DNA of 64,000 bases from Phoronis australis (Eukaryota; Animalia; Phoronida). Below the pieces are notes generated by a model. The model was not told where the DNA came from. It did not search any database and was given only the letters and a program-made list of their open reading frames with translations. The stretch spans positions 39,845 through 103,844 of the forward strand of contig NMRA01000451.1 of the NCBI GenBank assembly GCA_002633005.1. Reading direction: 5' to 3'. Position 1 is the stretch's first letter, and every line of letters starts with the position of its first letter. Below, one piece after another: positions 8,734 to 62,802 of the stretch. Position numbers and translations under genes: made by a program.

Positions 8734-8746
8734 TCTTCATTTTGAC

Positions 8747-38960: not shown

Positions 38961-39178
38961 CCATGAATTGTTCAACGAGTGTGCGACTTCACAATAGACT
39001 GGCAAGATGTCTGCCCCTTGTTGCATTCATGTGTCAGCTTCTGCTCAAATTTCTGAGCTAGAATTTTCAGATATAACCTGGTGTAAGGCTACTGCAAACA
39101 AACGTATCAACATTGAGTGCAAGAGAAGTATCATTTCTGAAAAGTTTTTAAGTGTTTGTGAAAGAACAGAGCTCTTGT

Positions 39179-40576: not shown

Positions 40577-42620
40577 CAGTCCACGGATCGACTGACCACA
40601 GTACAGCCAACAAGCGGCAAGGTGGGGGGTCAGCCATTCAGAACCATGTTCAGTCTAATAAACCACATTATGGATGAGAGAAATTGGGTGAAGTATTGCA
40701 CCACAAAGTTTGGTGGTTTAGAAGATAACACAGTAGTCTTCTGGAGGCTAAAATGAGGAAATTTCTTGATGCGGAATGGGTCATTTTTGACTACATTTTC
40801 TACTGCAGGTTCTGCTTCAAACAGAATCATTTATGAATAATTTTGATATCACATGATATATTCATGACCAATGTAAGCAAAACCGGTGCCAACACTAAAA
40901 TATCGGTTACCATGGTAACACTGGAGCTGTTTCCGAGGAGGTACATTTCATGCTCGTGAAAAAACAGCTGCAGTAACTTATATCGTCCTTATAGCGAAGC
41001 TTCCCCCACGAGAAAACAATAACGTGGGCATGTAGAAGACCCCATACCCTTAAAATTAATGCAAAAAAATTGTCACCCCTTCAAACAGGCTTCATAATAG
41101 GTGTCTGAATGTCACTATTTTCAGACCGCACATTGTGTATTTGTCATGTTAAACCAGTCACTAGTTGTGTGCCGTTAGTACGCATTAAAATGCCGCAATT
41201 GGTTTGCTTAAATGTTTATAATTAATTTCAAGGACACAAGCAGTTCCCACTAAAATAGGAAATTATACTAGATTTGTTCATCTAAGTCACTGAATACCAA
41301 ACTGAGGCATACAACATTCTTTAGTTGAATGATGGCTGATCTAAAGTGCAGGATTTGTGAATCTGGCACTGACAATCGCATCAAATATGGAATTTTTACA
41401 AATTGTCGAGAGAAAAAACTTTGAAAAACCACAAAAGACTTAACGAGACATTTGAGAACCTTAAAAGTGAGGGGAGATGATGTGAAGGAGGTGGAACGTG
41501 TCATTCTGAGCAGTCTGTCTGCCTCGGGCTCGGAGAGGTGCAGCACGCAGCATGAGCTAGATAATCTACCGCAGTAGATTCACTTGCATCGATAGAACCC
41601 TCGTCATACATTGGCGTTGCCAAAGGCACTGGATACATCCACTGCAAACACATAGGCGGATTTAGGGGGGGGCAGCGGGCTCGAGCCCTCCCCCCTTCTC
41701 CTTGGCTGCCGCAAAAAATTTAACAGCAACAGCGTAGGGAAATGTTGAGTTTATTAATTAACCCCACTAATTAAATTTATACGGATGAAACAAGATTTCA
41801 GTGTATGCAGTTTTAGTGTTTGGGGGGCTCAGACCCAATTTCAAGTGTCAAATTCGGAACACGGCGCATTCGTAACGGAACTATGGCTAAGGATAGGCTC
41901 TCCCGCAATATCCCAGGCGACCGGCAGTAGCGCTGCGCACTATGACTCCGTTTCCGTCTTCTGCTCCACTGTGCAATGAAGAAAATTTACTTCATTTTTT
42001 AAAGAAAATGGAACCTGAGTGACGATGAAAAAACAGAAGCTGCTGGTAAGATGTGAATTTTAATCGAAGACTCATAATTCTCTGTTTGTCAAACCTTAAC
42101 TTATGACAATTTCCAAAGCAATCCCGTCATTATTGCCAACAGAAAAACGGATTTGGTCCTTTGGGCATTTGAAGACTATTTTAAATACAACAACTTTGTT
42201 AAGAACTAATTGCACAAAATATATATATTTTTGTAATAAGCATTACAAAAAGAAGTTGGTTTCGCGCGCAAACGCTGTGGACCATAAACAAGTAAGCCTA
42301 GGTCTCTTACTATAAGATTTGTAGTCAAATCTTGGTGGTGTAGTGGTAAACCACGCGCGCTCTATCCGATCCACCAGGTCGCGAGTTCGAGTCTATGGTA
42401 TCATGGTGGTATTCGCAGTTTTTCCTGTTTGACGTGTTCTCCGTTTTTATTTGCCTTTTTTTCTTGTACAATACTTCGGGAATCAAGGAAAATGCTTGAT
42501 TTTTAGGGGAAAGTATTTGCCAAAGATTATCACAACAGGTCCAAAGTACTTTGTTGAGACCGGCCACTCTCAGCAAATGTGGGAAACTGAAACAGCTGTC
42601 GTTACAAAAATTAAAAGAGC
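40577..42620 (+). mobile_element. Second Academ-like copy (left part), interrupted
   Basis: 40569-41645 aligns with 9875-11000, and 42505-42590 aligns with 11704-11800. A hAT-like left end CATAGGCGGATTTAGGGG interrupts at 41651. The right end was not found. Confidence 0.75.
42334..42400 (+). repeat. tRNA-derived SINE head
   Basis: Pol III A-box TGGTGTAGTGG and B-box GTTCGAGTC at tRNA-like spacing; no complete cloverleaf. Confidence 0.55.
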
Positions 42621-44574
42621 AAAGAGGAAAGATTGCGAAACTATAAAGTAGGCCGAGAACATAACCCCATGATTACGACCAAGATGACGGTGAGTGTTAA
42701 ATTTTTCCTGGGAGTATGATAAATTGATGCAAGTCACTGAGTCAATGCCTCAATAGGAAGCAGGTCACTTCATACCCAAGTCAACACGTACCCAAGTCAA
42801 ATTTCAAAATTATTTCAAAACTATGTAATTTGGCAAAGCAGTGATTAAAATCAATCATCATATTTATGCAAAACGACTCAATATTACCAGTTATTTAGTG
42901 AATGAAAATGAAAGTATTAGTAATGTTTTTAGCAGGGGTACTAATTGACTTGGGTGCGAGTTGGCTAAGGTACGAACTGACCGGAAAGCCCTCATATGCA
43001 CAGCTGGTAAAAAGACTGTGTTCCCTGGATTCTGGATTCTGTGTCTGGCCTGTTTGTGTTTGAATCGAGCATCCAAATAATTCACTGAATAATCGGCCCG
43101 TGTGATGGCATTCAAATGCAGGTAGGATACATAATCCAGTAACAAGGTGACCATTTCATTCAGCGTATATTGTTATTTTCTCAGTAACCATAACTCTGGG
43201 CACGGTGTAAGATATCTGTCAAAATTATACTTTTTGTAATGTCCAGTTGTGGGGGAGAGGTAATCTCCATACTCGAGGCTCAGCTCGAAAACTGACCAAT
43301 TGCATGCCACAATTCTGGTACATTCAGTAGAATTGTGCACTGTGGATAGTTAGGCTTTGAGTCTGAGTTTGGAGATTACACCCTGGGCCCAGGTGATTTG
43401 CCATCAATGTCATTATTGAAATCAAATAGATGTTAGAATGCCGTGCAGTTACCGACGAATGAAAATATAAAATAGTCCATAGCACACCCTTGACAAAGAG
43501 TGCATCGCTCGAAACGTGGAGATATTTTAATATATTTTAGTACCGACGCTCGTCGTTTTAGTTTTACCAGTTCTACTATAATGTAATTATTGACTACAGA
43601 ATGCACCTATATCTGGAGCACAACCTTTAACATTTTCAAGCTACTTTTACTCTCAGGTTTTGCTAAAAGGCGCATAGGTGCCTGAATTTCAGATGTAGGT
43701 GCAGCTTCACACATATGGTTGAAGAATAACAAACCACATAGCAAATGTTTTGAGAACAGTCATTTTTATTGAGTTTTTGCTCATTCAACATAGTTTGTTG
43801 TTGGTTTGCTTTTAAAGTTATTTTGTACAGTGTTGTTGGAACACTATCTTCAAAAGTTCTACTTTTATGTGTTTTTGAAATACAAAATTTATTTGAGTGA
43901 AAGTACAATTTAGAATACTTGCATGATTGTAAAGACTTGTTTGCATATCTGAAATTGTATGTTAATTTTCAAACAAAAATTTGTTTTCAAGACCATTCTG
44001 CATACAAACCCATGGGTGTCTTTTTCACTTTTGAGCACATCACGCTGGGCCGTGTATATGGATGTCTTACTTTGAGTGTTTACTATCTGTCTTTTGATCA
44101 TTATTTGTACTTCCTTTCAGTTCTTGTAATAAAAAATTGAGTACATGTCAACATCTATCATTTTGTAGGACATGCCTACAATGCTTTCCATATTTTTAAA
44201 CTCTGACAACAGTTTTTATTTTTAATTTGCTTGGTTGTAGGTGGGTTGTTTTTGGATGCTGCTAAGGCAGGAAATGGCATGGACCTCTTGATCAGAGTAC
44301 ACTGGGAGCACTCGAAGTCAAATACCATCGTGCTCGCTACAACAGCTTCACAAGACTACTGACAAAACAGAAATCTAACGATAGTGAAATTTTCACAGAT
44401 GTATTTCAAGAGTTGTACTTTGAAGTTGTGGGGAAACGAATAATATGGCATGGGGAAATATTGCATTTGACTCTGTTAAAGTCACTCCTCGAGGAAACTT
44501 TATCCAAAAGAGGTTGTAATGTATGTGTCCGAACTAGAAATCTGAAATTGAAATTACAGAGAATTTACCCTATG

Positions 44575-45660
44575 GGACTTGCAGATGAAGTTATCAGTGT
44601 TGTTACGGTTGACGTTTTTGCAGGTAGAAAGTGGAGTTCAGAGGAGGAAGTAGCATCAGCAGAGAGCAGGTTTCACCGTAAAGATTTGGTAGGGGCACTT
44701 TCTAGAGGACGTGAAGGCCTTGGCATGAAACCGTTTAAGAGGTGGAAGACAACTAGAGGGAACGATCGTTGTTCTGTGGTATTAGACGACGTACGCCACC
44801 AGGAAGAGGAGAAGCGCTTTTCTCATGCTGTGGGTTTGAGATAGCAGGGCGCCTGGACAGCATGGAAAGGAGTTCACATTAGGCGCATTACAGCGAACGA
44901 CCTGATTTCATGTGACCAGTGTAGATTAATTTTTGTCCTGCGTTCTGTGTATGACGTACCCCCTAGTCCGACAAACCTGAAGTTGTGGGGTTGGATTGAA
45001 GACGATTCGTGCGGCAGTTGTGGGGAGCGCTGCACTTTACAGCACGTTTTGTCATCCTGTAAGTCGGCTTTGGCGGAAGGCAAGTACAAGTGGAGACATG
45101 ATAAGGTTCTCAAAGTGATTGCTCATATTATGGACCTAGAAAGAAGTAAGGCGGTAAGCAACACCGACAGCCCGCTAATATCATTTTACAGAGAAGGTGC
45201 AACCGGGAAGAGGAAAGATGCAGATGTATTGGCTACAGCGAGTGATTGGAAGATGGTTGTGGATATAGGGCCATTGGCAATATTCCCGAGCCATGTAGTG
45301 ATGTCGACATGGTATTATGGTCAGATGGTACAAATACGGTCATCATGGTAGAACTTACAGAACCATGGGAATTCCGAATGGTAGAGTACAACGAGAGGAA
45401 AAGGTTTAAGTATACAGAACTTTCCCATGATTGTTCAGTACCTGGTTGGAAGTGTTTTTGTATGCCAGTTGAAGTAGTATGTAGAGGTTTCATCGGTAGC
45501 AGCCTGTGGAGGTTGATAAAGCTCCTAGGTATCAGTACAGTGTCGAGGAAGGGTTTGGTGCACACAGTGATGAGATCTGCTGAAGAGGCGTCGTCGTGGC
45601 TATGGTTACAGCGAGACAACAGGTGGCACTCTAAGTGATGATCGAAGCCTGATCATCATT
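44575..45660 (+). mobile_element. 3' fragment of a HERO-like (R2-group) non-LTR retrotransposon with restriction-like endonuclease
   Basis: GRKW..AES..VG..GR.GLG, the CCHC knuckle CGSCG..LQHVLSSC, WRHDKVL, and RLE motifs DMVLWS..ELTEPWE..ERK..KY..PVEV..RGF; one stop and frameshifts. Confidence 0.85.
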
Positions 45661-45964
45661 GGGNAAATGTTATTCAAAATGGTATCAAAGTATTTGTAGA
45701 AGTGTATTTTTATCAAAGGTATCAACTTACACCGTAGAGCCTGGCACAGATAGTGTCATCTGCTCACGTTTCTGAATAATAAACATATAAAAGCATCATA
45801 CATTTCTTAGTTTGAAAGTGGTAAAATCTGTTGTGGACGCATACATGTTATTAAAGTGGTCTGTGGAGGACTGTATTTTGGTACATACAGACTTTAACCG
45901 AATGTGACACATATATACATGCAGTTGCGGTGATTGTATATTGGGTGGATTGTAAGAACAGTGG

Positions 45965-46185
45965 AAAACCGGGATATATAATGTAGTGGGGCATATATCT
46001 AATGGGACATATAAAGTTGCGGGATATATATGGTATACACCTAACGGGGCATATATACTTGCGGGCTATATATTGTACTGGGGCATATACCTAGTGAGGT
46101 ATATATAGTTGCGGGATATATATTGTTCCGGGGTATATAGCCAATGGGGCATATATAGTTGCGGGCTGTATATTTTATATATACC
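45965..46185. repeat. Degenerate minisatellite (about 17-18-bp GGG(G/C)ATATATA.. units)
   Basis: Recurring GGGGCATATATA(G/C)TTGCGGG(A/C)TATATATT motifs. Confidence 0.75.
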
Positions 46186-46246
46186 CCAGAACAAGGTCTC
46201 AAAATTTTACCCCACTTCAAGGTTTCAGATAATAACCCCACATCTG

Positions 46247-46267
46247 CATATATACATGTGTATATAT

Positions 46268-46301
<34 letters not shown>

Positions 46302-46302
46302 A
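46247..46302. repeat. (TA)n-rich microsatellite
   Basis: Direct inspection. Confidence 0.95.
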
Positions 46303-46700
46303 ACATGTATGTTTTCTGATTAAAATGATTGCTACTGTGGAGAAATTTGCCATCGAATCAATTTAGAAGCATTTCTTTATACCATAGAAATAGAGGAACT
46401 GGAATATCAATCCGGGATTCTGAGGCAGCTCTCCTACAAGCAGATAACCACGACAACCCGACATCTGACAACTTGCCCCTGAAGGCCCACGCTTTCCACG
46501 TATGGAAGGCAAAGCTACTTGCACGTACGGCTACCACCAAGGGTCGGTGTCAGAGTAGAATGACCAGCTTGCCGAGTAATTCTGGCAAGATATCGCCAGG
46601 TTTTCTTACATAGTAAATGACCTCCAATCCTGTTCTATGCCTTGCTTCTATTATTTCGAAACAGACTTGACATGCTTTGGTTAATACGGTTTTCATTCAC

Positions 46701-46845
46701 CTGCGCAGTGCTAGGACGAAGCTGCTGCGGAACCAGATTTTTTGGCGCAACAAGACAATAAGCACACCAACTCCAGCAATCACATAAATGGCGTAAGTCT
46801 TCACGAAAGTGCTTTTTAAAGGTTCACCAGAAGCGTCCGTCGAAT
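46701..46845 (-). CDS. Transmembrane-domain exon of a single-pass membrane protein
   Basis: tctctttcag|...|gtgaat, phase 1 to phase 2. Encodes DSTDASGEPLKSTFVKTYAIYVIAGVGVLIVLLRQKIWFRSSFVLALR. Confidence 0.7.
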
Positions 46846-47135
46846 CTGAAAGAGACATTTGTATTGAAAAAGCAGTCTCAAAACACATGATACTAAGCGT
46901 GTGCATGTGTTTATGCTATGTGGTACACTTGGATGTTGCAGGGCCAGTCCTACAGTATCTCCCACGTGCTAAGCGCATTCGGCTAAATTGGCAAACTCAG
47001 ACAATGACTGCTACATTCCAAGTAAGGAGTCCCTTTCAGTTGTTTCAAGCCACTCTTTATCATGACGAGCGAGCGTTGCATTTCTCGAATATATCTGCAA
47101 CTGCATGTTCACATCCAAAATGTCAGTGTACTTAC

Positions 47136-47156
47136 CTCCGACTCCCGGCCCTGAGC
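47136..47156 (-). CDS. 21-nt micro-exon (GSGPGVG)
   Basis: ctttgtag|GCTCAGGGCCGGGAGTCGGAG|gtaagt. Confidence 0.8.
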
Positions 47157-47459
47157 CTACAAAGTAGAGTAAATGAACTAACAATACCTACACGGTTGAT
47201 GTCGTCAGAGGAAAGTGACAATAAAAATCCGCGATCATATCATGTGACACATGCAGAATACACGACATCTCAGAACAAACATTATGCAATTAAGTCGTCA
47301 CTTTCGGAAACGCAATAGGAGGCTCTTTCAAATTAGTAGTCTGGGGTAAATACATGTATCGTTTCATTCCCAGTCTCTTCGAGTTGTCTTAATGTATTCC
47401 AATTCACCACGAGTCCATGTTGTGTGTCTTAAATGTCAGTCCAATTCCAGGATGCTTAC

Positions 47460-47480
47460 CTCCGGCTCCCGGTCTTGAAC
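47460..47480 (-). CDS. 21-nt micro-exon (GSRPGAG)
   Basis: ctttctag|GTTCAAGACCGGGAGCCGGAG|gtaagc. Confidence 0.8.
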
Positions 47481-48439
47481 CTAGAAAGCAAGGGAGTGTG
47501 AATTCAGGGTACCCATATATTCATAGACCAATTATCTGAAGGAGGCGGAGATTTAAGGATAGTTCCGCAGAAATTAGTTCCCTCAGTTTTGTACAAAGCA
47601 ACATCTGCTATGGGGCAAAAAGTGGGGACGGAACGCAATTACAGACTGGGTAGCATCAAGTCATCAAATAATTTAAATATTAACAGACAAAGAGAACCTG
47701 AAGCAAAAAAGCAAACAAACCAATACACCCTCAGATGTTTTTAAGTTGATTGGTAGTGAATTTAGACATTGATACTTGGTGTTTGACACTCGATGACTCA
47801 GCTCATTTGCCAATTGAACTCTGCACGCTGCAAAACTTCAATACAACAAAAGAAGGTACATGTATTTTTGCCTATATCCGAAACGTTCAATCGGTACACT
47901 AGCCGATGTGCTTATATTTGGAGGTTTTTAATTAGTGGAATCTTGGATAGGTAAACGGAGCACTCCCTAAAGCCATGTCACATCAAACAGGTACTCATTA
48001 TGGCATCGATAACGAGTAATAGTGTAGGATTGGACTAAATGTTGCATAACCGAAGCAGTTCTCCATGGACTACGGTCGGTATCCGAAACGCATCTGTTCG
48101 TTTTCACACAACTTCAAATCGTTTCACCAAGGACAAGACAATTTTGAGAATGAGCTTCGTGTGGCTGGCCTATACCAGGTTTATACTGTGATCTCTTGTA
48201 TTCTGTACATTCCGATTTGCAGTGCCGGTCGTGCAGTATCTCTTGCATGTACGTGCAAAGCACATTAAAGCAAACTTAGACAATGAATGATATATTCCAG
48301 TTCAGAAGTCCTCTTGAGCTGTTTGAAGCCACTCGTTTCACGTTATGGCGAGTCAGTGTTGACATTCTCGATTGTCTCTCCAACTTCACGTTGTTTTGCT
48401 CTTGATTTTTGTTCAATTAACAATGTATCAGTTGCTTAC

Positions 48440-48460
48440 CTCCGGCTCTCGGCCCTGAAC
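48440..48460 (-). CDS. 21-nt micro-exon (GSGPRAG)
   Basis: cttcttttgcag|GTTCAGGGCCGAGAGCCGGAG|gtaagc. Confidence 0.8.
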
Positions 48461-50929
48461 CTGCAAAAGAAGGGAATATAAAGTCAAGACGATATAAGTG
48501 ACAAATCAAACGGTCTACAAGGCGGTTTAAGAGTAATTCCATAGGACTTGCAAACTTTTCGTACGTACGAACAACTTCCAGGCAACAAACATTATAAAAC
48601 CATTTACAACACATATTCGGAAAGTGACAATAAAAAACCGCAAATACATTATAGTATGTGTCACTTATAAAATAAACGACATTCGAGAACAATCATAGTT
48701 AAATCGCCACTTTTGGGAACCTATCAAAAACCTGCAAAACAAATAGAATGGCATTCAGGATGCACTTGTTTTCACAGATCAATTCTCTAACGTATGAAGC
48801 AAATGTCCAAAATCTAACGTAAGCACGGCAACAAACATAATTAAATCACTTGCATAATCGGTTGACGTTATCAAAGGAAGGTGGCAATAAAAATTTGCGA
48901 ATACTATACATGACACATGCAGATTAAACGGCATCTGACAGCATACGCAATCAAATCACATGTGGCAGAGGTCAGAATAAGCTTGCAATTTTGAGATGGT
49001 TAGTATCACAGGCAGTCGAATTTCCCCATGACTCATAACCATATAAGCACCATAAACTTTGGGCACTAGAATTTAGCCGAACGCAGCCTCCCAACTTCAT
49101 TGTCCTAGTCCAAACGAAATCTGCATGCATCTCTCTCAACCCTCCGAAGCCTTATCTTTCATTGACCCCGTCAAATGGTCCATGTGAGTGGTGAATTGGC
49201 GACGGGATTTCCAAAACAAACTCAACAGTCTGAATTAAAGAGGTTAAATGGTGAACATGGCGGATTTCAGTTGTGCTTTAACTTGTACGCCTGTCGAAGA
49301 TTAAGTTTCGAGTTTCATCAACCCCTATGTGAACGCCAAGGATTGTGCCCCTAATTTAAATGATTGGGGTTACTAAAATTAGCTTACCACTTTGTTGTGT
49401 AACTTGTGAATTTAATTGAAAGAGCTGGCATATCTTGTATTTGATCTTGACACGATAAAATGTACGTGCTACTCTTGGAACAATCGGCTTTTGCCGGAAA
49501 TTCCCGATGTCTGACCGCACATTTAGTCGCGGGAAATAACATATCGGCAACTGACGGAAATCAAATTTAGGCCTCTTTTAGTAGCCCGCCACCCGTGGTT
49601 CTTCGGTTATAAACAGTGTTGTGTATCTGTCCTATCCCTTACAGTAAATGCCACAAAACATGCAGTTTTCAGCAACTGCATTTGTTGGTTATCTGAAAAT
49701 GTCACGGGTCCGCCAGTTAGCGGAACGTGTTGCTAGTAAGATGCCATGTCGCTCCAGACCTTTGTCTTTCGCATACACATATTTAGTGTTGCACTAATAC
49801 AGCACAGTACTTGAAATCAAGGTTAATTCAACAGTATGTAGCAATGCAAGTGCCGAGGAGAGGTCGGAAATACACTCTTACCAAGGGTGCGCACATTTAC
49901 TGCACGCCGCCAAAACAGACACACACGCACTCGTACCACGAAAAAATAAGGCAGCGTTAATTAGTCATCAGAGGACGTTGCCCGGTCACTTGCATTGGGC
50001 ATTGTCTGTGAAAGATTACCAGTTTTGGTTGGAATCGTGGTCATTACCAGCAATTCGTAAACTAGGTCATCCGCCAGGTTCTCTGTGTAATTTAGGTCAT
50101 CGCTTATGGACCAGTAACGCTAGGACCTCGCTAAAAAGCAAGACTTCGCGAGATTACGTGAGATATTGCCGTGCTTTTTAAATAAGAACACGTGACTTTG
50201 ACTAGGTTTGAGCTAGGTCCTAGCGTAGGTCCTAGCGTCTACTGAACGCACGCCTGTTAACGCTTCACTCTCCGCGTGTCCGAGTACTGGAGAGAAGCAC
50301 CAGGAAGGTTGTTCTACATTCTGTAGCCCAAAATTACCAAAGTTCAATTATATTCCGTTAAAGAGGAAAGACAAAACATATTATTACAGATGTCTGGCCA
50401 ATATCATGAGTCACCACTCGTAAGCAAATCAAAGCTGTCCTTACTCGTTGCCTTATCTCGCACTACCTCAATCGACTAGTTTTCAGTTCCCAATGCAACA
50501 GTACAATTCTCATAAATTCAACTTGTAATGACCCCTTTCAATTTTAAACCATGCCCGAAGTACTCGGAAACAAATTATTATTAGGTACAACGAGTTTTTT
50601 TCTCTGAAGTGGATCGTAAACACCTCAAGTGAGTTTTCCGCACAAAGCTACTTTGGTTTAGAGCTGAATTTTAGCTCCCTTACTATGGGCCGGGCCGGGC
50701 CGGTCAAGGGCCAACCCCTGTTGTACGCACTACTTAGAGCATGGGAATCAAACTGCTATATATAGAGAAAACGTTTATTAGTATACTGGTGTGCATATTA
50801 TCAGTGATTTAACCAAAAACTTCGAATTAACTAGACCCACTAATGATAGTCTATGATGATTAACTGATATCAAAAGGCCAAAATTGGCAATTTTCGGCCA
50901 CCCCATGTTAAATACAAAATTTTGTCGAA

Positions 50930-53275
50930 TTTTCGCATTCCATTTCACGTGCGAAAAGATGTCGAACAAGAAATTGCACGACTGACCGATCTCGACGTGA
51001 TTGAGGAAGTCAACGGCCCCACCCCATGGATTAGCCCAGTTGTAGTGATACCCAAGAAAGAAGGCGTACGACTGTGTGTCGACATGACAGAAGCCAATAA
51101 AGCGATTAAGCGAACCAAGCACATCATGCCGACTATTGATGACCTTGTCCATGACCTGAATGGGGCTACAGTATTCAGCAAGTTAGACATGTCAAGTGCC
51201 TACCATCAACTAGAGTTGGACGAAGAAAGTCGTTTCATCGCCACATTTACAACACATGTTGGTCTACGACGATACAAGAGACTACTGTTTGGAGTCAACG
51301 CTGCAGCTGAACTATTTCAGAATACTATTGCACAGTTACTTCAGGACATCCCAGGTGCCAAGAACCTCTCAGACGTCTCACCAAGAAGGACGTCACATGG
51401 TCATGGGGCAAAGATGAAGAGACAGCTTTCAATAACCTGAAGGATGCGCTGACAAGTACCTCAGTACTTGCATATTTCGACCATAAGAAGAAAACCGAAA
51501 TACCAGTCGACGCAAGCCCAGTTGGCCTAGGTGCTGTCTTGATGCAAGAAGATAAAGTCATCTCGTATGCAAGCCGTGCACTCACTGACACTGAGACACG
51601 ATACTCACAGACAGACCGATAAATGCTCGCACTTGTCTTTGGAGTTGAAAAGTTCCATACCTACATTTATGGCTTAACCTTCACGATCACCACTGATCAT
51701 AAATTTTTGCTTGGTATAATCAAGAGCCAGAAGCCCACCACAGCAAGAATGGAGCGATGGAGACTACGACTTATGTCATATGAAATGACCGTGCAGTATT
51801 GTCCAGGAAAAGATGAGAACAACCCAGCAGATTACATGAGTAGTCATCCACTCACACAGCCGAATCGACAAAACTCAGGAGAAGCTTACATTCAGTATGT
51901 AATGAAGACTGCAGTCCCGAAGTCATTGACTGTAGAAGAGGTACGTGCAGCGAGCCGAGAAGATCCAGTGATACAGGCGCTGGTAACAGCTATCGAAACT
52001 GGAATTTGGAACACAGCAAAACTGAGCTCGTTCACATCGTTCAGGGACGAACTATCTGTCACAGATGGAGTTGTTCTTCGAGGACACAGAATCGTCATTT
52101 CTGAGAGCCTCCAGAAGCGTGTAATCACTATTGCCCACAAGTCCCATCAAGGTGTGGTGAAAACCGAACAGCTCATCCGAGAAAATTTGTGGTTCAGTGG
52201 TATTGACAAGGCCGTAGAAAAGGCTGTGAGCGGATGTATTCCATGCCAAGCGTCAAACCCTGGACAACCTCACAGAGAACCAATTGTACATGTACCTACT
52301 GACCTTCCAGTGGAACCGTGGCATTCCCTCGCCATGGATTTTGCGGGTCCATTTCCTACGGGAGAATATCCTCTTGTAGTTATAGATGAATGCAGCAGAT
52401 ATCCAGAAGTAGAAATCGTCTCATCTACTTCAGCTAAGGCTGTGATTCCGAAACTCGAGATGATCTTTGCTCAAGAAGGCAACCCTCACAAACTCAAGAC
52501 CGACAATGGACCGCTCTCCAGCAGCCATGAGTTCTCAGCCTTCGCCCAACACTTCGAAATCGTTCACAAGAAAGTTACGCCGTTGTGGCCAGAAGCAAAT
52601 GGCGAAGCAGAGAGATTTGTGCGAACTCTGAATAAGTACATACGAGCAGCAACAGCAGCCCAAGAGAATTGGAAGACAAAACTTCCCACGTTTCTTTCCC
52701 AGTACAGAGCGACGCCCCACTCCTCTACCAAGACATCTCCGTTTGAAGCCCTCACTGGTCGAAAGATGAACATTGGTCTACCCACCATACATCAGTGTCC
52801 CAACAACGTTTCAGTTCACATTCGCATCGTTGAGAATGACACCACCAGCAAGGCCAAGATGAAGTCATATGCTGATAACCGCCGACATACACAGACTTCG
52901 AATCTGCGACCAGGAGATCACGTGCTAGTGAAGCAACCCAAGTTGAACAAAACAACACCGCCGTTCCAACCGTCACCTTTCACTGTCACTGATAAGAAAG
53001 GCAGCATGATTAAAGCACAACAAGGACAACAGATGATAACCCGTAATTCCTCACACTTCCGACAGATCCACGGTAATATCGACACCAACGAAGAAGACAA
53101 AGAAGATGGATCTACCCAGATCGATACTACAACATCTACTACATCTACCAAGAAACTGTCTACATCTAGTCCCAGTCCCCCAAGTGATGAGATTTCAGCT
53201 ACATCGCAAAACTCCAGACCCAATCGTGACCGACGTCCGCCAGACTATTTAAAGGACTATGTACGAACCCGTTAG
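50930..53275 (+). mobile_element. Ty3/Gypsy LTR retrotransposon pol remnant (RT with internal deletion, RNase H, integrase)
   Basis: PWISPVVVIPKK..RLCVDM..AN, FSKLD..AYHQLEL, VDASPVGLGAVL, TDHK, HKSHQG..CIPC and D,D35E (MDFAGP, TDNGP, NGEAER). RT jumps from NLSD straight to TKKDVTWSWG. Confidence 0.95.
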
Positions 53276-53540
53276 TTGCCGTCAATCTGATTTTGTGCGA
53301 GAGACTATTACAAACATTGTTTATCACATAGACTTTAGAGTTAGTAATTAAGTTCTTGTTCTTACTTGTTTAAGATTACTCTAGCATTCAAGTAGCATGT
53401 AGTTGTTTACTTCTGTCTTCATTTAGTGAATGAGTTTGCACTAGATCTTAGGTGCCACTTAATTAACCTTCATTAGCAAGTTGTCACGTTCTGTTTAGAT
53501 CTTCAGGAACTCGTATTGAGTAGGAATCTTCACTCTGTAG

Positions 53541-53700
53541 TATGGGAGGAGTGTAGTGTTGTTACATTCGAATAGTATAAATGTAATGTACGTCGATCGT
53601 CTGACATACAAAATACACGTTAGTTCCTGATTTAATACTTGTTTTATTAGACTAACTAACGATGCAACAATTTTTAACAAAATACTTATCTATGTTATGT
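53541..53700 (+). repeat. Polypurine tract and start of the 3' LTR
   Basis: GGGAGGAG is immediately followed by TGTAGTG at 53552; the LTR end and the 5' LTR were not identified. Confidence 0.55.
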
Positions 53701-54639
53701 GCTATCGGCAAATGTGATTGATTCATAAATAAGACCCTCACGCTGTGTTTTCTGCGAACCCCATGTATCCTGAAGGGGCTAACTGAGTGATTTTCGTGCA
53801 TGCGCAGTTCACGGTTTCAATATTGCTGGTAATGTTCCTTGGTAAAAGTGTGCTGAACGTGTTAAGAGTGTTTGGCAGGTGTGGTAAGGGTGCACGCACG
53901 TACTAAATGTGCATAGGTTCTCTGCCACGCAGCATTAGAATACGAAGATGTTCTTTAACCCTGCTTTAACGTTCAATGCAAATGCATTTACACGTTTGAA
54001 TATGGCAGCAGTTCACAAACTCCTGAAAACCATTACCCCTGAAACAAAAATACTCTTTCCATCTTCGTGGAACATCCAGACTTTTAGCTTGAATCTTCTA
54101 CTAACATATCTTACGATACTGTGACAGTTTATGCGGTTTGGGTATGTATTACAGTAATGGCTGAATTGCCACACGTAAAAATTGTTGTGACAATTTTTGC
54201 CAGCCTTCATGATCCTATTTGGCAAAGTGTTGACATTTTGGGCCTGCACACCACACGCCGGTCCGGCACTCGTCGAACATAGAAGAGCTGCAGGATTACG
54301 TCAACTAATCCACTTACACTGACCACAGTGCAAGAGCCATATTATAGCTTGGGATCAATTGTTGCTGGTGATATGGGGAAGAAAAGTTGTATACTCGAGA
54401 GCCTGTCCATCAGAAAAGCCAGTGGTGGGGCCAAGAACCGTGACGTGAGTCAGTGCTAACTCTTTCTAAAATTTATGTCATCATGATATGTGTCCCAAGT
54501 TGGTGACTTTATAAAATGACTGAAAAACCACCTAATCATCATTTGGCGAAAAAACACAAACACTGAGAGTCGAACATGCATTACATTAAACATTATAAGG
54601 AGTGCCACTACATTCATGTTACGGGGAAACCAAAAAGAC

Positions 54640-57548
54640 TGACAGCCTGATCTAAGTCCAACGTTCAGGCCTGAGGTGAGACGACGTTCACGTCAAGACA
54701 TGTGAAACTTGTCGTGTAAGTTAGCATCTTATACATGCACTATTCGCGTTGGAGCTCGGGCTGTCCACACTCCCAGAGAGGCTGCGATCTTCCCACGAGT
54801 TGCTACAGAAATGAGAAACTGCAACATCAGTTTGCTGACACTAACCGAGGTGAGGTTGAACACAGTTGGCCAAATTGATAAGCAGAAAGTAGAGACCTTT
54901 CTTTACTCAACTAAAAAAAATGAGGTTAACCCATATGAGCATGGCGTTGGACATATTTTCTAAATCAAAACTTCACCAACAGTCTAATTTAGTGGAACCC
55001 CGTCTCCGACACAATAGTCACATCAAGATTCGAATCCCGTTACCGGCGGATAATAGTTACACAATATACGCACCCACCAGGTGATGGGTTGTCATGACCA
55101 GGGTATCGTGAAAATGGCGACTTCTTCACTTACTTGCGTCTACAACAACCTGGTCAGATATTAGTAGCACAACTTTCCGTCACAAGAGAGGTCATAAATT
55201 AAACCTGTGTCCTGGTGGAAAGAAAAAAAACAAATCAATCACTTTCCCATCCGTAGACATTATATAAGAACCATGGAAGATGTCCGCAGTATGCAAGGTG
55301 CAGATATCGACTCAGACCACTATATAGTTGTTGCTGCATTGCATGTAAAGCTGTCCTCTCAGAAATTTAGTGGAAATGACAGTGTCAATTTTGTCATCAA
55401 CAAGTTACGAAACGACGACAGCAAAACGGAATTTGCACTTCGCAACAGGTTCGCTCAATTACAAGGCGAGACCGCCGATTTCACTACAGAACACTTGTGG
55501 ACCAACATCAAACACACGTGCATTAGTACATGAAGAACTTCTGGGTAAAAGCTCAGTAAAGAACAAGAAACCACGGATTACTGATTTCACTTGGGAAAAT
55601 ATAAAAAAACGAAAAGTCTTGCTGTCAACTGAGTCAAGACCTGTCTCTAGCCAGCGCACAGAACTCTACATATAGAAAGATTAAGAACTTAAAAGATGTA
55701 CAAGAACTGAAACATGGAAATATGCGTTTAGAGCTGAGGAAGCCGCTGCCAAGGGAGACATAATGACACTGTGCGCCACCATCAACCAATCGAGTGGCCA
55801 ATGCTCTATACCTTCAAACAACTTCAGGACAAGGTTGATCAGCTAATCACCAATATTGAAGAGCAATTGGAATGCTAGTGAACTCCTTTCAACACCATGC
55901 TGAATTGCAAACCTCCCTTAAATCCTCCAGCATTGGCTGAAACGACGAAGGAAATCCTCGACATCTGCGTCCATGGAATTCAAAGAGGAAATAAATCTGC
56001 CCTTCAAACCACTTAAGGACAAGGATTGTAAGCTAATCACCAATATTGAAGAGCAACTGGTATGCCAGTGAACTCATTTCAACACCATACTAAAGTGCAA
56101 ACGTCCCTTAAATCCTCCAGCATTGCCTTAACCGAGGGAAATTCTGGACATGTGTCGTCAAGAGCATGAATATTGGGAAAGCATCTGGCATCGACAATAT
56201 CTCATCTGAAGCTGTCTAAGAGGGAGGCGAATTCTCACTCAATGCCCTACACACATTGCTCAACGAGATCTAGGAAACAGATGAGACCCCACAAGACTGG
56301 CCCAAAGGGCTCTTGGTTGGACTGCCGAACGCAGGCGACCTATTCCAACCTAAAAACTTTCTGGCCACACCAAGCAAGATGCTCATCCAGGTAATGCTTA
56401 ACGGAATGAAGGAATCTCTTGACCTTAAACCGATTATATACATGTACCAACAAAAACAGATTTTCCGACAGAACGAACCTTTACTGACCAGATTGATACC
56501 CTGAGGAGGACTGTTTAACAGTCCATCCAATGGAGTTCATCACTCCACCTCGACTTTGTTGATGTCAAGAAACCTTTCGACAGTTCCGACAGAGAAATGA
56601 CTGGAAAATCATCCGGAATTATAAAACACCACGATGGGTTCACATGTCTGGTTATACACAATGTGGACTCAGTCAGCCATTCCAGGATGCAACACGTGTA
56701 CGACATGGATGGTTACTGTCACCTTTTTCTTGATTGCTCTTAATTGGGTGACACGCACCGCATTCTCCGCCCCACCAATTGGTATACTTTACCAGCCGTC
56801 TTGGCAATTTAGGGTATACAAAAAAACCCCTTCTCTTCCTTTTGGCTCAGCAACATCACGAAATTAAACTTAAGACTCGGGTGCTCTCGTTTGGAGCCAA
56901 ACATCAACGTCGAGCAAACCAAGACGATGCGCATTTACGATTGGACAAAATGACAGCATCTGAGTGGATGGGAAAGAGTTAGAAGATGCCCAGTCTTCCA
57001 CCATTTTGTGTAGACAGCACTATGGGTGCAACACAGGAAGACGTCAAGGCTCGCATGAAGCAGAAACATCAACCGCATGCCATGCCAAAACCTGTCTGGA
57101 AGTCCACTCCCTGACACCTCAAGATCTTGAACTCAAATTTCAAGCGCCCTCCTGATTCACAGCTTAACGGCATGATGACTCGATAAATCTATTATCACCA
57201 ATGCTCAAGTCTTTACAGATGACTGACTAGTCTGACAAAAAAAGTAAATTAAACCATGCGGAATAAAGCCAGTTATGAAGTCATAGAAATCCAGATAAAG
57301 AGAAGGAGTGGAGGTGGATTGGTCACACGATACAAAAACCCAATACAAATTACCACCTAGCTTGCCTTAACTGGGACCCCCCAGTGGAAACGTGTAATAT
57401 TGGAGACGAGCTGTGAATCTGAACTCCTTTCTATTGACAGGTTTTGAAACGAGACCCGAACAAAGGCTACCAACTAGACTAGATGGAGAGCAGTCATTGA
57501 GGCCTTATGCACCTGAAGGTGTCTAGAGGCATCAGTCAGGTAAGTCAC
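54640..57548 (+). mobile_element. Decayed RTE-clade LINE (APE endonuclease and RT)
   Basis: EMRNCNISLLTLTEVR, HGVG, DVRSMQGADIDSDHYIVVA and FVDVKKPFDS motifs; WRWIGH at 57309; short AGTC/AAGT-type tail. Confidence 0.85.
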
Positions 57549-57691
57549 TATGTATCGGGAACAGAAAAGAAGGAAATAAAAACATTCCGTTAATTTTCAC
57601 CTCGAGTAACTGATGCATTTGTAAGATGTCTAGTTGATCTCGGTGTTCTTAAATACACTTTGCCCAATTCACACATGTCTAATTGTTTTAC

Positions 57692-57712
57692 CTCCCGTTC
57701 CCAGTGTTGCAC
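57692..57712 (-). CDS. 21-nt micro-exon (GATLGTG)
   Basis: ctgttttgtag|GTGCAACACTGGGAACGGGAG|gtaaaa; same length, phase and GGGA..GGAG frame as the others. Confidence 0.65.
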
Positions 57713-58986
57713 CTACAAAACAGGTAGTATGAATTTAAGGAAACACAAGTTATATCAGATATGCGTTCAAGTATATTTTTTTACTCAAGAGAAAGAAAAT
57801 AACAGCAAGTGATAACTAGCAAATGGAAAAAGCACAACCTTCACGCACTCTAAACGAACAAGTTATTTTCCAAATTATACATGTGCAAGTAAATATTTAC
57901 AGAAGGTTTGCCAAAAGGTGAAAATTAGACCTTTTTCAAAACTGATAATCAGCATTCGTCTAAGTTTGATATAACGATACGATAAATGTAAAAATTTCCA
58001 AATATAGACTTGCTGTGGTCCAACAAAGACTAAAATATAAAGTACTCTCATGAAGGTAGTACCAACATACATGCTTGATATGTTAGTCTTTACTAAATCT
58101 ATGCTTTGCTTAGTTTTATTACTTAAAAAAGCTTGAAATTTGGACCAAAGCACATGTACAAGTGAACAATCACAATTAAACAAAATGATCTAAAGCTTCA
58201 ATAGCATAATAAGACACGCAACTACTATCTCTTACTATCTTCAGCTTTGTTTAAACGTTTCTATGCACATTGTAACATTTACAAGTTTTAACTTTTAGAA
58301 AGGAGTATAAGCCCAAATGGCAACGCTGTTCTGAACAAACATCACATAATCTGTGCTCTACATCAGGTTGTGAAATCAATTTATATGAAAAGTAATTTCA
58401 GTTGGCTGTACTGTATGTCATCTATTGAATTTCTCTGGGAAGAGCTCATTGTACTAGGTAACTTAATTGCCTTCATCAAAGATCAGTTTTGTAACCAATT
58501 CTATAATTTATATCTTTGTTTCATAACTTCCGAAGATAAAAACCTGTTTTGAGTGTCTGACATATCGTTTACATTAACTATGGCGGCCTTGCAGGTCCCA
58601 CTGAAACATGCAAATTTGCCATCAATCAAAATATTTCTATTTAATCAAGCAAAGTCTGCTCAAAATGCGCAATTAATCAATTTTGACTATTTCAATGATA
58701 GTTGCGTTAGAGAGACTTAGCAGCGGCGTGTCCCTTCCAAATGAACCTCTACCTATCAACAGAACCTAACTACATCCGGTCATTCGTCAACCTACCAGAC
58801 TCTACATTTGAAAACAAATGCCTCTGAACTCTGCCGTCTTTCACCTTATTCTCTCCAAAATTAATAACTTTCTCAAAATACCATTACAAAGGCTCAGAGT
58901 AAAGTCTATTAGACCAGTCTGTATAAAAATGGGCCATTAATTTGCAAGTGAACAAAGTCTTTACTGCCGGACTGTTCATACCCAAT

Positions 58987-60477
58987 AGCGGATTTGCAGC
59001 GCAAACGAACTACGCATTGCGCATGTGCGAGTTACTTCCTGCGCGAAGGCTCATGGGATAGCTTATGGTCAGGCTTGTCTTGAGGGGGCTGGATAGTGTG
59101 TGCAGTTGGATTGATTTGCAAACTAAAAACCATGTTTCATTTTTTTGCTTTGTAATACCAAGCGAGTCCTCTATCTCGTTTGTAAATACAGCGAAGCTAT
59201 GATCAGTGACCGTGTGACCGAGGGCACGACTGTCGTCATGTTCAGTATTGGGGCTATCGGCGTTGATTTCGAAATCCCCTCCGGTTTCAGACAAGTTGAG
59301 AGTTCTTGGGTTGCTAAACTTTTGTAGCTTTCGCCGTGGATATGCTAGAGACGTTAATTTTAAGAGGAAACTCCGTCGGAATGTCGTTCTCATGCGTCCT
59401 TTTTCCACCAGGAAAATGTTAGCTGCACACACGATGGTCCATAGGCAATTACATCGCACTGGATCAGTGCCGCAGGCATTCAGGGGTGATAGTACATCCT
59501 CACAAAAAGTTACTCATTTCAAAATACAGCAAATAAAATCAATACATATAGGAACACGGAGTTATTATTACCACAAACCACGACTCTGGAAACAATTTAG
59601 TCAGCAAAACTTCAACAAATCGATGAAAATCTGTCGCGGTTTGCTCGAGTTTCTCTCAGTTACCGGGTGCCATTTTGAGGAAGTTACTTGAAATTACGCA
59701 TGTTGAAGAAAAAAACATCCAAGGGACACACATCTTACAAGTTTCACCCGATACCTTCTCATGCTATTTTACAAGTGTCGCACGCTAGCGTCACGCGCTT
59801 CGCTCAGTCTCGCGCTAACCTTTGCCTAACTCGCGTGATTCAGTTGACATGCTTTGTGGTTATCGCCACGCGGTGATAAAATTAACGGCAACCAAAAAGT
59901 TGAGTTGTAATTCTTCGCCAAAGTCAACTTAATTCTCACAACTAAGCTTCATCAAAGATATGTATAGAAGTAGAAAGAACCAATGATGAAAGTAAGCGTT
60001 TTTTAAATGATAGTTTTAAGTGTAATGTATTTTTGACGAGGTGAAAACTCGAAATCGGTAACCCAAATCCGGTCACGGCCCGTTTAAAATACACTGAAGT
60101 AACGAAATGAGTACAGAAAGCGAATGGAAATATCGTAGCCCCTATATGGCCAACCGAGGGGCTACGTGTTGCCTACTAGATGGCCCCGCGTTGGTTTGAA
60201 TGCGCTAAATCTCCCCTTACTCCCAGCTCTCCTAATGTTGTTTATCCATTTTTCACGAAGTTCTTGGTTTGCAGGAAACACATAAAAATTCAGATTTTTA
60301 TCTCTCTTGTTGTTTTTGAAGCAGCCAGGATTACAACAAATGTATCCGCCGTAAGTTTTCTTCGCGCTCATACCGCGTATTATGCTTGTTACTATGGCCG
60401 CTTTCTGAATCCTGACCACAGCACCCACAATGCACCATTTTAACCTAATTTCAATATGGCGTCGCTGCAAATCCGCT
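58987..60477 (-). mobile_element. ISL2EU-like non-autonomous transposon with a truncated THAP domain (60162-60371)
   Basis: AT|AGCGGATTTGCAGCG ... CGCTGCAAATCCGCT|AT. MSAKK..CCNPGC..FYVFP..LREKWINNIRR is a THAP N-terminal half. Confidence 0.8.
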
Positions 60478-61229
60478 ATTAAGATTTCTCCCCCGAGGCC
60501 GTAAGAACTGGTCTGAGTTGCGCAATTTCTGTGTGGCTCATCATTGGTGTTTTGCCTTATGCAACTGCAAAACCTAAACATGTGGCGTGTCAAGTATCGC
60601 CAAAAGATTATTACAAGTAGAACACACCGTGGTGGTTGCTGAGTCCATGATTTTTTCACTTTAATTTAATCTGACTCGTCTCAAAGTTGGATGAGTTTTG
60701 ATAGAACGTATATTCTTTAGGCGAAAGCACAATAAACGTTCTCGCATCAGTGAAAGCGCGAATTTGAAATCCAAACAGTGGACAGTCATATTCATATTGA
60801 ACATTTAAGACGCTAAAAGATCACCCTCAAAACTTGAAATGCTGACGCCAGCTACTTGATCGCACACGACCGTGGTGTTAAAAGCACGTGCCACTTGTCT
60901 CAAGGGCAAACTTGGCTCTGAGAAGTAAACGGGAAGATCTCTGAGGCGCGAAATCGAATGAAAAACTTTGAACAGTAAAAAACCCATGGTATCATCCTCA
61001 AAACAACATATTCAGTGGATTGAGAAATCTTTCAATATATGTTACTCATCAAATCAGAAAATCCCTCATAACTTGAGAATAATATGTCTCAGCGCGAAAC
61101 CAATAATGCATCACGATAGGCATATCAAATTTCAGGAATCTCACTGAAACGATAGCAGAACTAGAGCTCCCTAAGCGATTCTTCAAAACAGCTATCACAG
61201 CGCCACCTTCTGCCGCGTTTTGCTAAAAA

Positions 61230-62802
61230 TTACAGACCTCAAGCTTTTCACAAGATACAGGATATGTGTAAATTTCCTGTGGATCAGACGTGAAATGCGA
61301 CCTAAAGCGCGAGTGATATACACCACTTTAATTGCAACAAGGAATTGGTCTGTAAACAAACACAAACCAAATCACAGAAAACTACAGGGTGACACAGACG
61401 CCCTCTCAATGAATCATTTTGCACTCAAAATAAACAGCCATGCAATGATGCAAGCACTACTTTTCCTGGTGTAATATCTGACTTTCATTTTGCACTTCTA
61501 TACTGTTGAATATGAATGTAACCTTTACAGCTATGAATGGTTGATTACTAGAAAAATAAATATGCTTTTACATATATGTATTTGTAAAAATAGTACATAA
61601 CCACTTGTTGAGATAATTGTGCAATAACACATGTTCTATATTTCAGGTTACAAAATATACTCATATTTGTGTTGCCCACTTCTTGCCTCAAGATTTCAAA
61701 TGGACACCTGTGAGAAAAAAGTTAAAGCCTGATGAAGTACCCTCACTGTTTGCTTTTGTCACCTCAGGCACATGGTTAAGATCAATCTGCAATAATAAAA
61801 TGCAATTTCGTAGAATTTTAAAGCAAATTGAAATGAATATTTGATACAGCTAGTTGAGTTATTTTCTGTCGATTTTAAATATGAATTATTTTTAAATGGC
61901 AGCATGCAAATCACCAATTACTGAATCATTATATTGTCAAAATCTGAATAAATTAAAATTTAAATTTGATCATAGCAGACACTAAACATGTTTAATACCT
62001 CCAACAAGGTCAATTTAATGTTTTTCAACACCAAATGTAATTAAGTCAATACATACTCATATTAATAAAAATTAGCATGCTACCTCAAATCATTTTAGTG
62101 ACTTCATACTTACAGATAAGTTATGGGGTGGTTCATTTTTTCTGAGATCTGAAACATTTTGCTTGCAACTTGCAAGCACTTGCAACAGGCGTTACTGTAA
62201 ACAAAATTAATGTTTTAGTTTATGACTTCTAAACTGTCCAGATATACAGAAAACAAGACACCACTTGAGATTGAATTAAAATATGAGTACATAATAGAAA
62301 CACATGCACCGCCCACGAAACATCGGTTGCATTTGACGAAATCTCGTAAATTAATTAAACTTAAAACACCCTAAGGGCCTGCAGTAGTTCAGTCAAGATC
62401 CACACACCTGAATCAACTACTTTTGAAATAAACTTATGAATTTAAAAACAAATCTGACAGCCCTCAGCATTTCAAATATAATGTGGCCAGTAGCTTTACA
62501 ACTCGTGGTCAACTTGGTATCATTGCTTTCTTCTTGTAAAACAAAAACCCAGAGAAACAGGTTTGTTATGACTGGCCAGTTGGCATCTTAACAACAACAA
62601 CTGAAGAATGTCAATGCAGCCTATAAAACTACTTACTTCTTATTGATGTAATGTAACCTTCGCTGAAATACTTGTACCCTTTGGAGAGATGGTTCTTTCC
62701 TGATGATTGCGAGGAATTTTTGCAGTATGACTCCACAAAGCCAAATGTTAAGTTTGGAACAAGTGTGAGGTCTCGATCAGCTAGCGCAGAGGAGGCTGCC
62801 AT
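61230..62802. mobile_element. ISL2EU-type remnant: THAP exons (+) converging on a SWIM/YqaJ-type first exon (-)
   Basis: Plus-strand exon from 61647 reads VTKYTHICVAHF..KLKPDEVPSLF. Minus-strand exon 62802-62637 reads MAASS..VPNLTF..KGYKYFSEGYI|gtaagt. Confidence 0.6.

What the first reader, a model, noticed from the sequence alone, without database searches (positions are those of the whole stretch)
46701..57712. Array of 21-nt phase-1 micro-exons encoding a Gly-rich stalk ahead of a TM exon
Seen: four exons of exactly 21 nt with canonical AG/GT sites (57692-57712, 48440-48460, 47460-47480, 47136-47156) splice in frame to a TM exon. The product is GATLGTG-GSGPRAG-GSRPGAG-GSGPGVG-DSTDAS..YAIYVIAGVGVLIVLL. 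Because all four are symmetric, any subset can be skipped without frameshift. Inference: a single-pass receptor or adhesion protein whose extracellular stalk length can be tuned by splicing, reminiscent of micro-exon genes. Standard annotation would likely miss these exons. The ectodomain exons were not found and probably lie beyond the window.
Basis: partly seen in the sequence, partly recalled or inferred. Interest (0 to 1): 0.82.

Follow-up and report, generated by a model that had tools for sequence, protein, structure and literature searches.

The report
Expandable mini-exon stalk before membrane anchor
A transcribed animal gene splices together a row of 21-letter exons just ahead of a predicted membrane anchor, and the RNA carries two extra units that this stretch of DNA lacks, so the flexible stalk they likely encode probably differs in length between individuals, a known design in a gene with no relative found.

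Summary
The four 21-nt AG/GT units and the TM exon are at the stated coordinates on the minus strand and exceed chance (0 of 150 simulations). Stranded RNA reads from two runs splice three of them (48440, 47460, 47136); the far unit (57692) has related flanks but a weak donor and no reads. The main new result: reads join the last unit to the TM exon through two identical extra 21-nt units (G-S-G-Q-Q-A-G) absent from the window, and the introns flanking the units are 70-80% alike. The array grew by copying exon-plus-intron modules, and its unit count most likely varies between haplotypes. No ectodomain, signal peptide or homolog was found; 'receptor' is unshown and the tail looks short. The architecture is known (schistosome SmPoMuc and MEGs, chicken BG 21-nt exons, CD44 stem), and this scan reported similar arrays on other DNA. 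Verdict: real, a new variant of a known kind, moderate interest.

The parts
57692..57712 (-). Unit 1 (GATLGTG): diverged 21-nt module, weak donor (GTAAAA), not seen in RNA
   Evidence: 5-9 mismatches to units 2-4; proximal 50-nt flanks match unit 2 better than all but 1 of 315 and 0 of 304 control sites but 250-nt flanks show no similarity (z at most 2.0); depth 0 on the gene's strand in bin 57309-57919
48461..57691 (-). 9231-nt intron between units 1 and 2, swollen by mobile elements (Gypsy pol on + at about 50.9-53.3 kb; LINE-like remnant on + at about 54.7-57.1 kb; high-copy repeats near 49 and 50.1-50.9 kb)
   Evidence: Length; Gypsy Pfam hits, relatives; LINE-like motifs read by eye (not scanned); repeat depth
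48440..48460 (-). Unit 2 (GSGPRAG): spliced 21-nt phase-1 exon
   Evidence: Joints to unit 3 (30 and 33 reads, CT..AC ends) and to unit 4 (14 and 14 reads) in X5 and X6
47460..47480 (-). Unit 3 (GSRPGAG): spliced 21-nt phase-1 exon
   Evidence: Joint 47478 to 48438, 30 and 33 reads
47136..47156 (-). Unit 4 (GSGPGVG): spliced 21-nt phase-1 exon; RNA carries one silent change at 47155
   Evidence: Joints to unit 2 (14, 14 reads) and, through two extra units, to the TM exon (9, 10 reads)
46846..47135 (-). 290-nt intron; in the transcribed haplotype two identical extra 21-nt units (GSGQQAG each) are spliced in at this position, and neither is in the window
   Evidence: 38 letters between the sides of joint 46847 to 47134 in 8 of 9 (X5) and 7 of 10 (X6) reads (table 5c); 0 matches in the window at up to 3 mismatches
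46923..48936 (-). Duplicated intron flanks of the modules: 46923-47109 with 48205-48392 (70%), 47193-47270 with 48859-48936 (78%), 47210-47311 with 48619-48720 (72%), 47453-47506 with 48433-48486 (80%)
   Evidence: Self-BLAST; unit 2 versus unit 4 flanks z = 17.0 upstream and 44.8 downstream
46701..46845 (-). TM exon: short Ser/Thr/acidic spacer, 16-residue hydrophobic stretch, basic tail; ends at a possible donor (CAG/GTGAAT at 46700) or reads on to a stop at 46699-46697
   Evidence: Kyte-Doolittle 2.88 over 15 residues; RNA depth 38 and 33 at 46831, 29 and 24 at 46775; donor in the top 0.5% of 3950 GT sites by my own score

Best explanation
This is the 3' end of a transcribed gene in which 21-nt, frame-preserving exons are spliced in a row onto an exon with a hydrophobic stretch, likely giving a single-pass surface protein with a flexible Gly/Ser stalk whose length probably differs between haplotypes because whole exon-plus-intron modules have been copied. 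Shown: the exons, their splicing for units 2-4, the duplicated flanks, and two extra identical units in RNA that the window lacks. Inferred: each module gain or loss (probably unequal crossing-over or slippage) adds or removes seven residues without a frameshift; the stalk is extracellular (acidic residues before the helix, basic after it); it works as a spacer that sets how far an unseen N-terminal part stands off the membrane, as in an adhesion or surface-coat protein with a short tail rather than a signalling receptor. Alternative splicing may add isoforms on top, but this is not resolved.
For: Splice joints in two RNA runs, all with the first mate on +, which by the tool's note means minus-strand RNA in most stranded libraries. 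Flanking introns 70-80% alike, z = 17.0 and 44.8 for units 2 and 4. Two identical extra units between unit 4 and the TM exon in 8 of 9 and 7 of 10 joint reads, absent from the window; identity of the two fits a recent duplication. The DNA run X1 shows both letters at 46831/46834 (17.8 of 28.4 depth for the RNA type), so both TM-exon types exist in that sample. The TM exon is the best of 2 hydrophobic phase-1 exon candidates among 483 minus-strand acceptors. Depth falls from 38 to 29 and from 33 to 24 along the TM exon, as expected near a transcript's 3' end (inference). The same mechanism is described for SmPoMuc exon 2 (PMC2576457, passages).
Against: No genomic copy of the extra units was seen, so copy-number variation is inferred; collapse in this assembly or a close paralog would look the same. 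No signal peptide or ectodomain exon was found, so topology and function rest on one 16-residue hydrophobic stretch. No homolog in three searches. The tail frame is odd: the in-frame tail is fairly hydrophobic, while another frame reads Cys-Cys-Ala-Lys-Lys right after the helix, so the window allele may be frameshifted; only 12 of 132 indel rows were displayed. Unit 1 has no RNA support. Only 15 of 87 joints were displayed and 18-19% of each RNA run was read.
Confidence: 0.62

Rival explanations
1. One reading: one fixed array whose symmetric exons are skipped in combinations, tuning stalk length by splicing within an animal.
For: Unit 2 is followed by unit 3 in 63 reads and by unit 4 in 28 reads, with similar ratios in both runs; the three TM-exon differences are in all reads of both runs (29/29, 38/38, 36/36; 24/24, 33/33, 33/33), which fits one expressed allele; only 9 and 10 reads show the unit 4-extra-extra-TM path where about 45% of 38 and 33 would. 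Unit 1 has a weak donor and is absent from reads.
Against: Skipping unit 3 in the window's array predicts a unit 3-unit 4 joint in about 60 reads; it is not among the 15 joints shown although joints with 5-9 reads per run are. Both unit-2 joints are flagged 'between: not known', and units differ by only 3-4 letters, so a second unit-2-like exon in a longer array explains them without skipping.
Confidence: 0.35
2. All individuals share one longer array; this assembly collapsed or dropped the youngest modules, and stalk length is not polymorphic.
For: The two extra units are identical, the kind of repeat that assemblies collapse (stated for SmPoMuc in PMC2576457); both RNA samples show the same extra units.
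Against: Collapse normally leaves one copy, but the window holds none, and the unit 4 to TM intron is continuous and homologous to the unit 2 downstream flank. The RNA haplotype differs from the window at 3 TM-exon sites, so it is another haplotype.
Confidence: 0.15
3. The reads come partly from a close paralog elsewhere in the genome, and the window copy is a diverged or frameshifted duplicate.
For: The window lies beside an old segmental duplication with a broken gene copy; the in-frame tail looks less typical than another frame.
Against: X1 depth over the locus is 20.7-35.8, like neighbouring single-copy bins, and 28.4 at the TM exon (the tool warns that depth is no copy number); splice sites of units 2-4 are intact and rank 2nd-4th of 4 short symmetric candidates.
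Confidence: 0.12
4. The two identical extra units arise by exon repetition in the mRNA from one genomic copy, as proposed for SmPoMuc.
For: The two units are letter-identical while all window units differ by 3 or more letters; PMC2576457 proposes this for SmPoMuc (passages).
Against: A recent tandem duplication explains identity more simply; no joint that goes back is among the displayed rows for these units.
Confidence: 0.05

Closest known systems
Schistosoma mansoni polymorphic mucins (SmPoMuc), PMC2576457 (passages read)
   Same: A tiny exon and its flanking introns repeated in tandem; repeat number varies; the region defeats assembly; transcripts hold more units than the DNA at hand.
   Different: SmPoMuc exon 2 is 27 bp, its intronic repeats are over 94% identical, it follows the signal peptide, and up to about 20 genomic copies occur; here 21 nt, flanks 70-80% alike, 4-6 units seen, Gly-rich, directly before a hydrophobic helix.
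Schistosome micro-exon genes (MEGs), PMC4015677 and PMC5825161 (passages read)
   Same: Runs of symmetric micro-exons; a few MEGs have a membrane anchor; skipping gives isoforms.
   Different: In MEGs micro-exons make up to 75% of the coding sequence after a signal peptide; neither share nor signal peptide can be tested here, there is no sequence link, and the host looks like a marine invertebrate rather than a schistosome (weak).
Chicken BG (butyrophilin-like) genes, PMC5938342 (passages read)
   Same: Arrays of 21-nucleotide exons next to a TM exon, with exon number varying between genes and haplotypes.
   Different: BG exons come after the TM exon and encode a cytoplasmic coiled coil; here they come before it and encode Gly/Pro-rich units that cannot form a heptad helix (inference from sequence).
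CD44 stem region, PMC13653113 (passages read)
   Same: Type I protein whose membrane-proximal, flexible stem changes length through variable exons; short tail.
   Different: CD44 variable exons are not tandem micro-exon copies (recalled), and their differential inclusion is established; here no ectodomain is known and skipping is unresolved.

Membership tests
Schistosome MEG | Consecutive symmetric micro-exons | tested here: met
   21-nt phase-1 exons, three spliced in RNA
Schistosome MEG | Micro-exons form most (up to 75%) of the coding sequence | not testable with these tools
   5' part of the gene not found; no genome held
Schistosome MEG | N-terminal signal peptide | tested here: inconclusive
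   No joint from unit 2 to any upstream exon in 45700-64000 among the 15 of 87 joints shown
Schistosome MEG | Isoforms by exon skipping | tested here: inconclusive
   63 versus 28 reads for two followers of unit 2, but no unit 3-unit 4 joint displayed
Schistosome MEG | Sequence kinship or schistosome origin | tested here: not met
   No homolog of the TM exon (short query, weak test); named relatives of the intronic Gypsy element are molluscs, echinoderms, cnidarians, priapulids and others
SmPoMuc-type array | Exon plus flanking introns repeated as a genomic unit | tested here: met
SmPoMuc-type array | Repeat number differs between transcripts and genome or between individuals | tested here: met
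   Two units in RNA absent from the window; the cause is not resolved
SmPoMuc-type array | 27-bp exon, 9-residue mucin repeat after the signal peptide, introns over 94% identical | tested here: not met
   21-nt, 7-residue Gly-rich units before a hydrophobic helix, flanks 70-80%
BG/butyrophilin 21-nt exon array | 21-nt exons downstream of the TM exon encoding cytoplasmic heptad coiled coil | tested here: not met
   Units are upstream of the TM exon and Gly/Pro-rich
Type I single-pass protein | One membrane-length hydrophobic stretch with basic residues after it | tested here: met
   Kyte-Doolittle 2.88 over 15 and 2.18 over 19 residues, followed by R-Q-K; short, no dedicated TM predictor run
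Type I single-pass protein | Signal peptide and ectodomain | not testable with these tools
   Not in the part of the window linked by reads
Collagen-type repeat | Uninterrupted Gly-X-Y triplets | tested here: not met
   Seven-residue units with Gly at positions 1 and 7 break the triplet period
Neural SRRM3/4-type microexon programme | Neuron-restricted inclusion under SRRM/eMIC control | not tested
   Only search listings seen; tissues of the runs are not given

The most novel reading that the evidence does not exclude
A fast-evolving surface recognition or adhesion protein of a free-living marine invertebrate whose elastic Gly-rich stalk is set in seven-residue steps on two levels at once: inherited gain and loss of 21-nt exon modules between haplotypes and combinatorial skipping within an animal, giving an individual-specific 'reach' code of the kind so far described mainly in parasites and vertebrate immune genes.
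Probability: 0.2. Interest if true: 0.7.

Novelty: new variant of a known kind. Interest (0 to 1): 0.42.

Why it matters
It is a caught-in-the-act example of a protein stalk growing by whole micro-exon modules: old, middle-aged and brand-new copies sit in one array, and the expressed haplotype has units that the assembly lacks. It shows how such genes escape annotation (no homolog in three searches) and gives a simple test case, one PCR ladder on DNA and cDNA, for whether stalk length in an invertebrate surface protein is set by inheritance, by splicing or by both. It would matter much more if the missing N-terminal part proves to be a recognition domain. The architecture itself has precedents, so it does not open a new class.

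Tried and rejected
No whole genome is held, so the adjacent DNA and paralogs could not be scanned. No RNA holder was listed by word search; RNA runs came by species label. Homolog searches with the TM exon: 0 of 49 candidates at E up to 10 among 84-2000 aa proteins, 0 hits among 1.84 billion representatives, 0 of 593 pattern matches confirmed in metagenome contigs, no Pfam family; a 47-48 residue query makes these weak. Dispersed-repeat reading: rejected within the window (only the four units within 5 mismatches; X1 depth 20.7-35.8 against hundreds to thousands in repeats). Candidate upstream exon near 62879 (44, 50 and 2 reads, same strand and sample pattern as the gene): set aside because X1 shows depth 134 in 6 contigs, no joint to the gene is displayed, and the AG-flanked 45-nt stretch has stops in all three frames (read by eye). 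The idea that the VWA-like ORF at 23114-23896 marks the family's ectodomain: it has a weak phase-1 donor at 23130, but no micro-exon array or TM-like phase-1 exon follows it; not excluded for an unseen upstream paralog. My first shuffle could stop short and was replaced by full-length simulation. My first TM-exon scan missed the known TM exon and was rerun with a looser filter. The 50-nt flank test for unit 1 was chosen after seeing the alignment, and the 250-nt test was negative. GPI-anchor reading: considered, less likely because 16 residues with basic ones follow the helix; no predictor run. Literature: four searches for this combination gave 0, 1, 0 and 1 papers, none describing it (listings only); a fifth gave 16 (one read).
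Full report
Observation. The four 21-nt segments are at the stated coordinates on the minus strand, each with a pyrimidine tract, YAG, a GGAG end and GT. I call them units 1-4 in transcript order (57692, 48440, 47460, 47136). In phase 1 they read GATLGTG, GSGPRAG, GSRPGAG and GSGPGVG. Units 2-4 differ from each other by 3-4 letters, unit 1 by 5-9. Introns are 9231, 959, 303 and 290 nt. Of 25 short exon-like candidates in the window they are the only 21-nt ones. In 150 simulated windows the same filter gave 0.33 such hits on average and never more than 2, and no AG..GT-flanked match within 5 mismatches arose. The exon at 46845 encodes a short acidic Ser/Thr spacer and a 16-residue hydrophobic stretch (Kyte-Doolittle 2.88 over 15 residues); it is the better of 2 such phase-1 candidates among 483 acceptors.

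RNA evidence. Eight runs were listed; I laid 4 of them on 45700-64000: three RNA runs of the same species label (18-19% of each read) and one DNA run. The answer displayed 15 of 87 joints, 12 of 32 between-letter rows, 40 of 1200 variant rows, 12 of 132 indel rows and 24 of 1055 loose ends, so absences are bounded by that. In X5 and X6 the four bins over the units and the TM exon have depth only with the first mate on +, which the tool says is the strand opposite the RNA in most stranded libraries; X7 has depth 0 there. Three joints concern the gene. Unit 2 joins unit 3 with canonical ends in 30 and 33 reads. Unit 2 joins unit 4 in 14 and 14 reads. Unit 4 joins the TM exon in 9 and 10 reads, but with 38 letters between; in 8 and 7 of them these letters, with the shared edges, make two identical further 21-nt units, each reading GSGQQAG (my translation). 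That unit has no match in the window at up to 3 mismatches.

How the array arose. The introns around the units are copies of each other: four blocks at 70-80% identity, with z = 17.0 and 44.8 for the flanks of units 2 and 4 and z = 3.4 and 4.0 for units 2 and 3. Unit 1 shows nothing over 250 nt (z at most 2.0), but its nearest 50 nt match unit 2 better than all but 1 of 315 control acceptors and 0 of 304 control donors; against unit 3 the downstream flank is unremarkable (63 of 304) (a test chosen). It is probably an older module, with the weakest donor (2.6 against 6.7-7.8 on my recalled-frequency score) and pushed away by mobile elements: a Gypsy pol (Pfam rve, RT_RNaseH, Integrase_H2C2) and LINE-like fragments (read by eye). 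So the array holds an old copy, three middle-aged copies and, in the expressed haplotype, two identical young ones. The RNA haplotype differs from the window at three TM-exon sites in all reads (one silent, two that keep or add Thr; worked out by hand), and X1 DNA carries both types at two of them (17.8 of 28.4). Module-number variation between haplotypes is therefore the simplest reading, but no genomic copy of the extra unit was seen, so it is inferred.

Is stalk length tuned by splicing? Two units follow unit 2 (63 against 28 reads), all reads share one TM-exon type, and fewer reads follow the unit 4-extra-extra-TM path than the roughly 45% of depth that one isoform would give. That fits more than one isoform. 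Against simple skipping: it predicts a unit 3-unit 4 joint in about 60 reads, and none is displayed although joints with 5-9 reads per run are; both unit-2 joints are flagged 'between: not known'; and a longer array with a second unit-2-like exon would give the same table. I put splice tuning at about 0.35; it is not exclusive of copy-number variation.

The protein. Acidic residues before and basic residues after the helix suggest the repeats lie outside the cell (inference). Gly/Ser/Pro units suggest a flexible spacer; the likeness to elastin or silk motifs and to Ser-Gly glycosaminoglycan sites is recalled, not tested. The tail is unresolved: the frame runs 16 residues to a stop at 46699-46697 if unspliced, there is a good donor at 46700 (top 0.5% of 3950 GT sites), and another frame reads Cys-Cys-Ala-Lys-Lys just after the helix, which would be a more typical tail if alleles differ by an indel. 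Depth falls along the exon (38 to 29, 33 to 24) and is 4 and 1 at 46540-46562, which fits a nearby 3' end and a short tail but does not separate these cases. No upstream exon is linked by a displayed joint, and no homolog was found. 'Receptor' is thus unshown; an adhesion or surface-coat protein with a spacer is my working model. The host is probably a marine invertebrate: 40% GC, and named relatives of the intronic Gypsy element include Mya arenaria (56%) and Patiria miniata (46%) among 120 of 452 hits listed; this is weak for taxonomy.

Comparison. SmPoMuc genes repeat a 27-bp exon with its introns in about 1-kb units, vary in number and break assemblies (PMC2576457, passages; lead from earlier finding e1-7201266). 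Schistosome MEGs have symmetric micro-exons, skipping and occasionally a membrane anchor (PMC4015677 and PMC5825161, passages). Chicken BG genes have variable numbers of 21-nucleotide exons, but cytoplasmic and coiled-coil (PMC5938342, passages). CD44 is the model for a stem lengthened by variable exons (PMC13653113, passages). No supplements were read. The locus works like an SmPoMuc-type array placed in a CD44-like position, and fails membership of each named family on at least one defining feature or cannot be tested. Five searches for this combination (listings) showed no paper describing it, within a library that lacks most subscription journals. This scan reported two similar mini-exon stalk arrays in other genomes (unchecked AI notes) and nothing on this DNA.

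Verdict. Real and expressed, richer than first described in one respect (extra units in RNA, modular duplication) and weaker in others (unit 1, skipping, receptor function). New variant of a known kind; interest 0.42.

Noticed in passing
window 2614-11802 and 23003-42595 (plus 20866-22022 with 37103-39848): Old segmental duplication, blocks 75-81% alike, interrupted by mobile elements.
   Followed up: partly
window 23114-23896 (-): Intact 260-aa ORF with a signal-peptide-like start (by eye); no Pfam hit, 0 of 488 candidates homologous, Atlas first hit VWA at 0.86 with 140 of 256 features, a lead only. A broken copy lies at 2738-3157 (35% identity). Weak phase-1 donor at 23130.
   Followed up: partly
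window 1636-1647 (-): 12-nt symmetric exon-like segment with the strongest splice-site score of the 4 short candidates, 1.1 kb downstream of the broken VWA-like copy; no RNA data.
   Followed up: no
window 59000-63000: THAP-domain ORF at 60162-60665 (-) (PF05485, E 2.9e-07) in a high-copy, transcribed repeat; with the ORF start near 62800 it looks like a DNA transposon (recalled resemblance).
   Followed up: partly
window 62850-62900: About 55 nt covered by 44, 50 and 2 RNA reads with the same strand and sample pattern as the micro-exon gene; multi-copy in DNA and not joined to the gene in displayed rows.
   Followed up: partly
window 50868-53275 (+): Gypsy-type LTR retrotransposon pol fragments inside the long intron, best relative 59% identical.
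   Followed up: partly
window 18394-20175 (+) and 44266-45638 (+): Non-LTR retrotransposon ORFs: RVT_1 plus RNase_H at 18.4-20.2 kb; a second, split element just downstream of the TM exon (by eye).
   Followed up: no
window 50112-50298: Very high-copy short element (X1 depth 36433 in its bin; over 1000 loose-ended RNA reads per run) with a 12-nt tandem.
   Followed up: no
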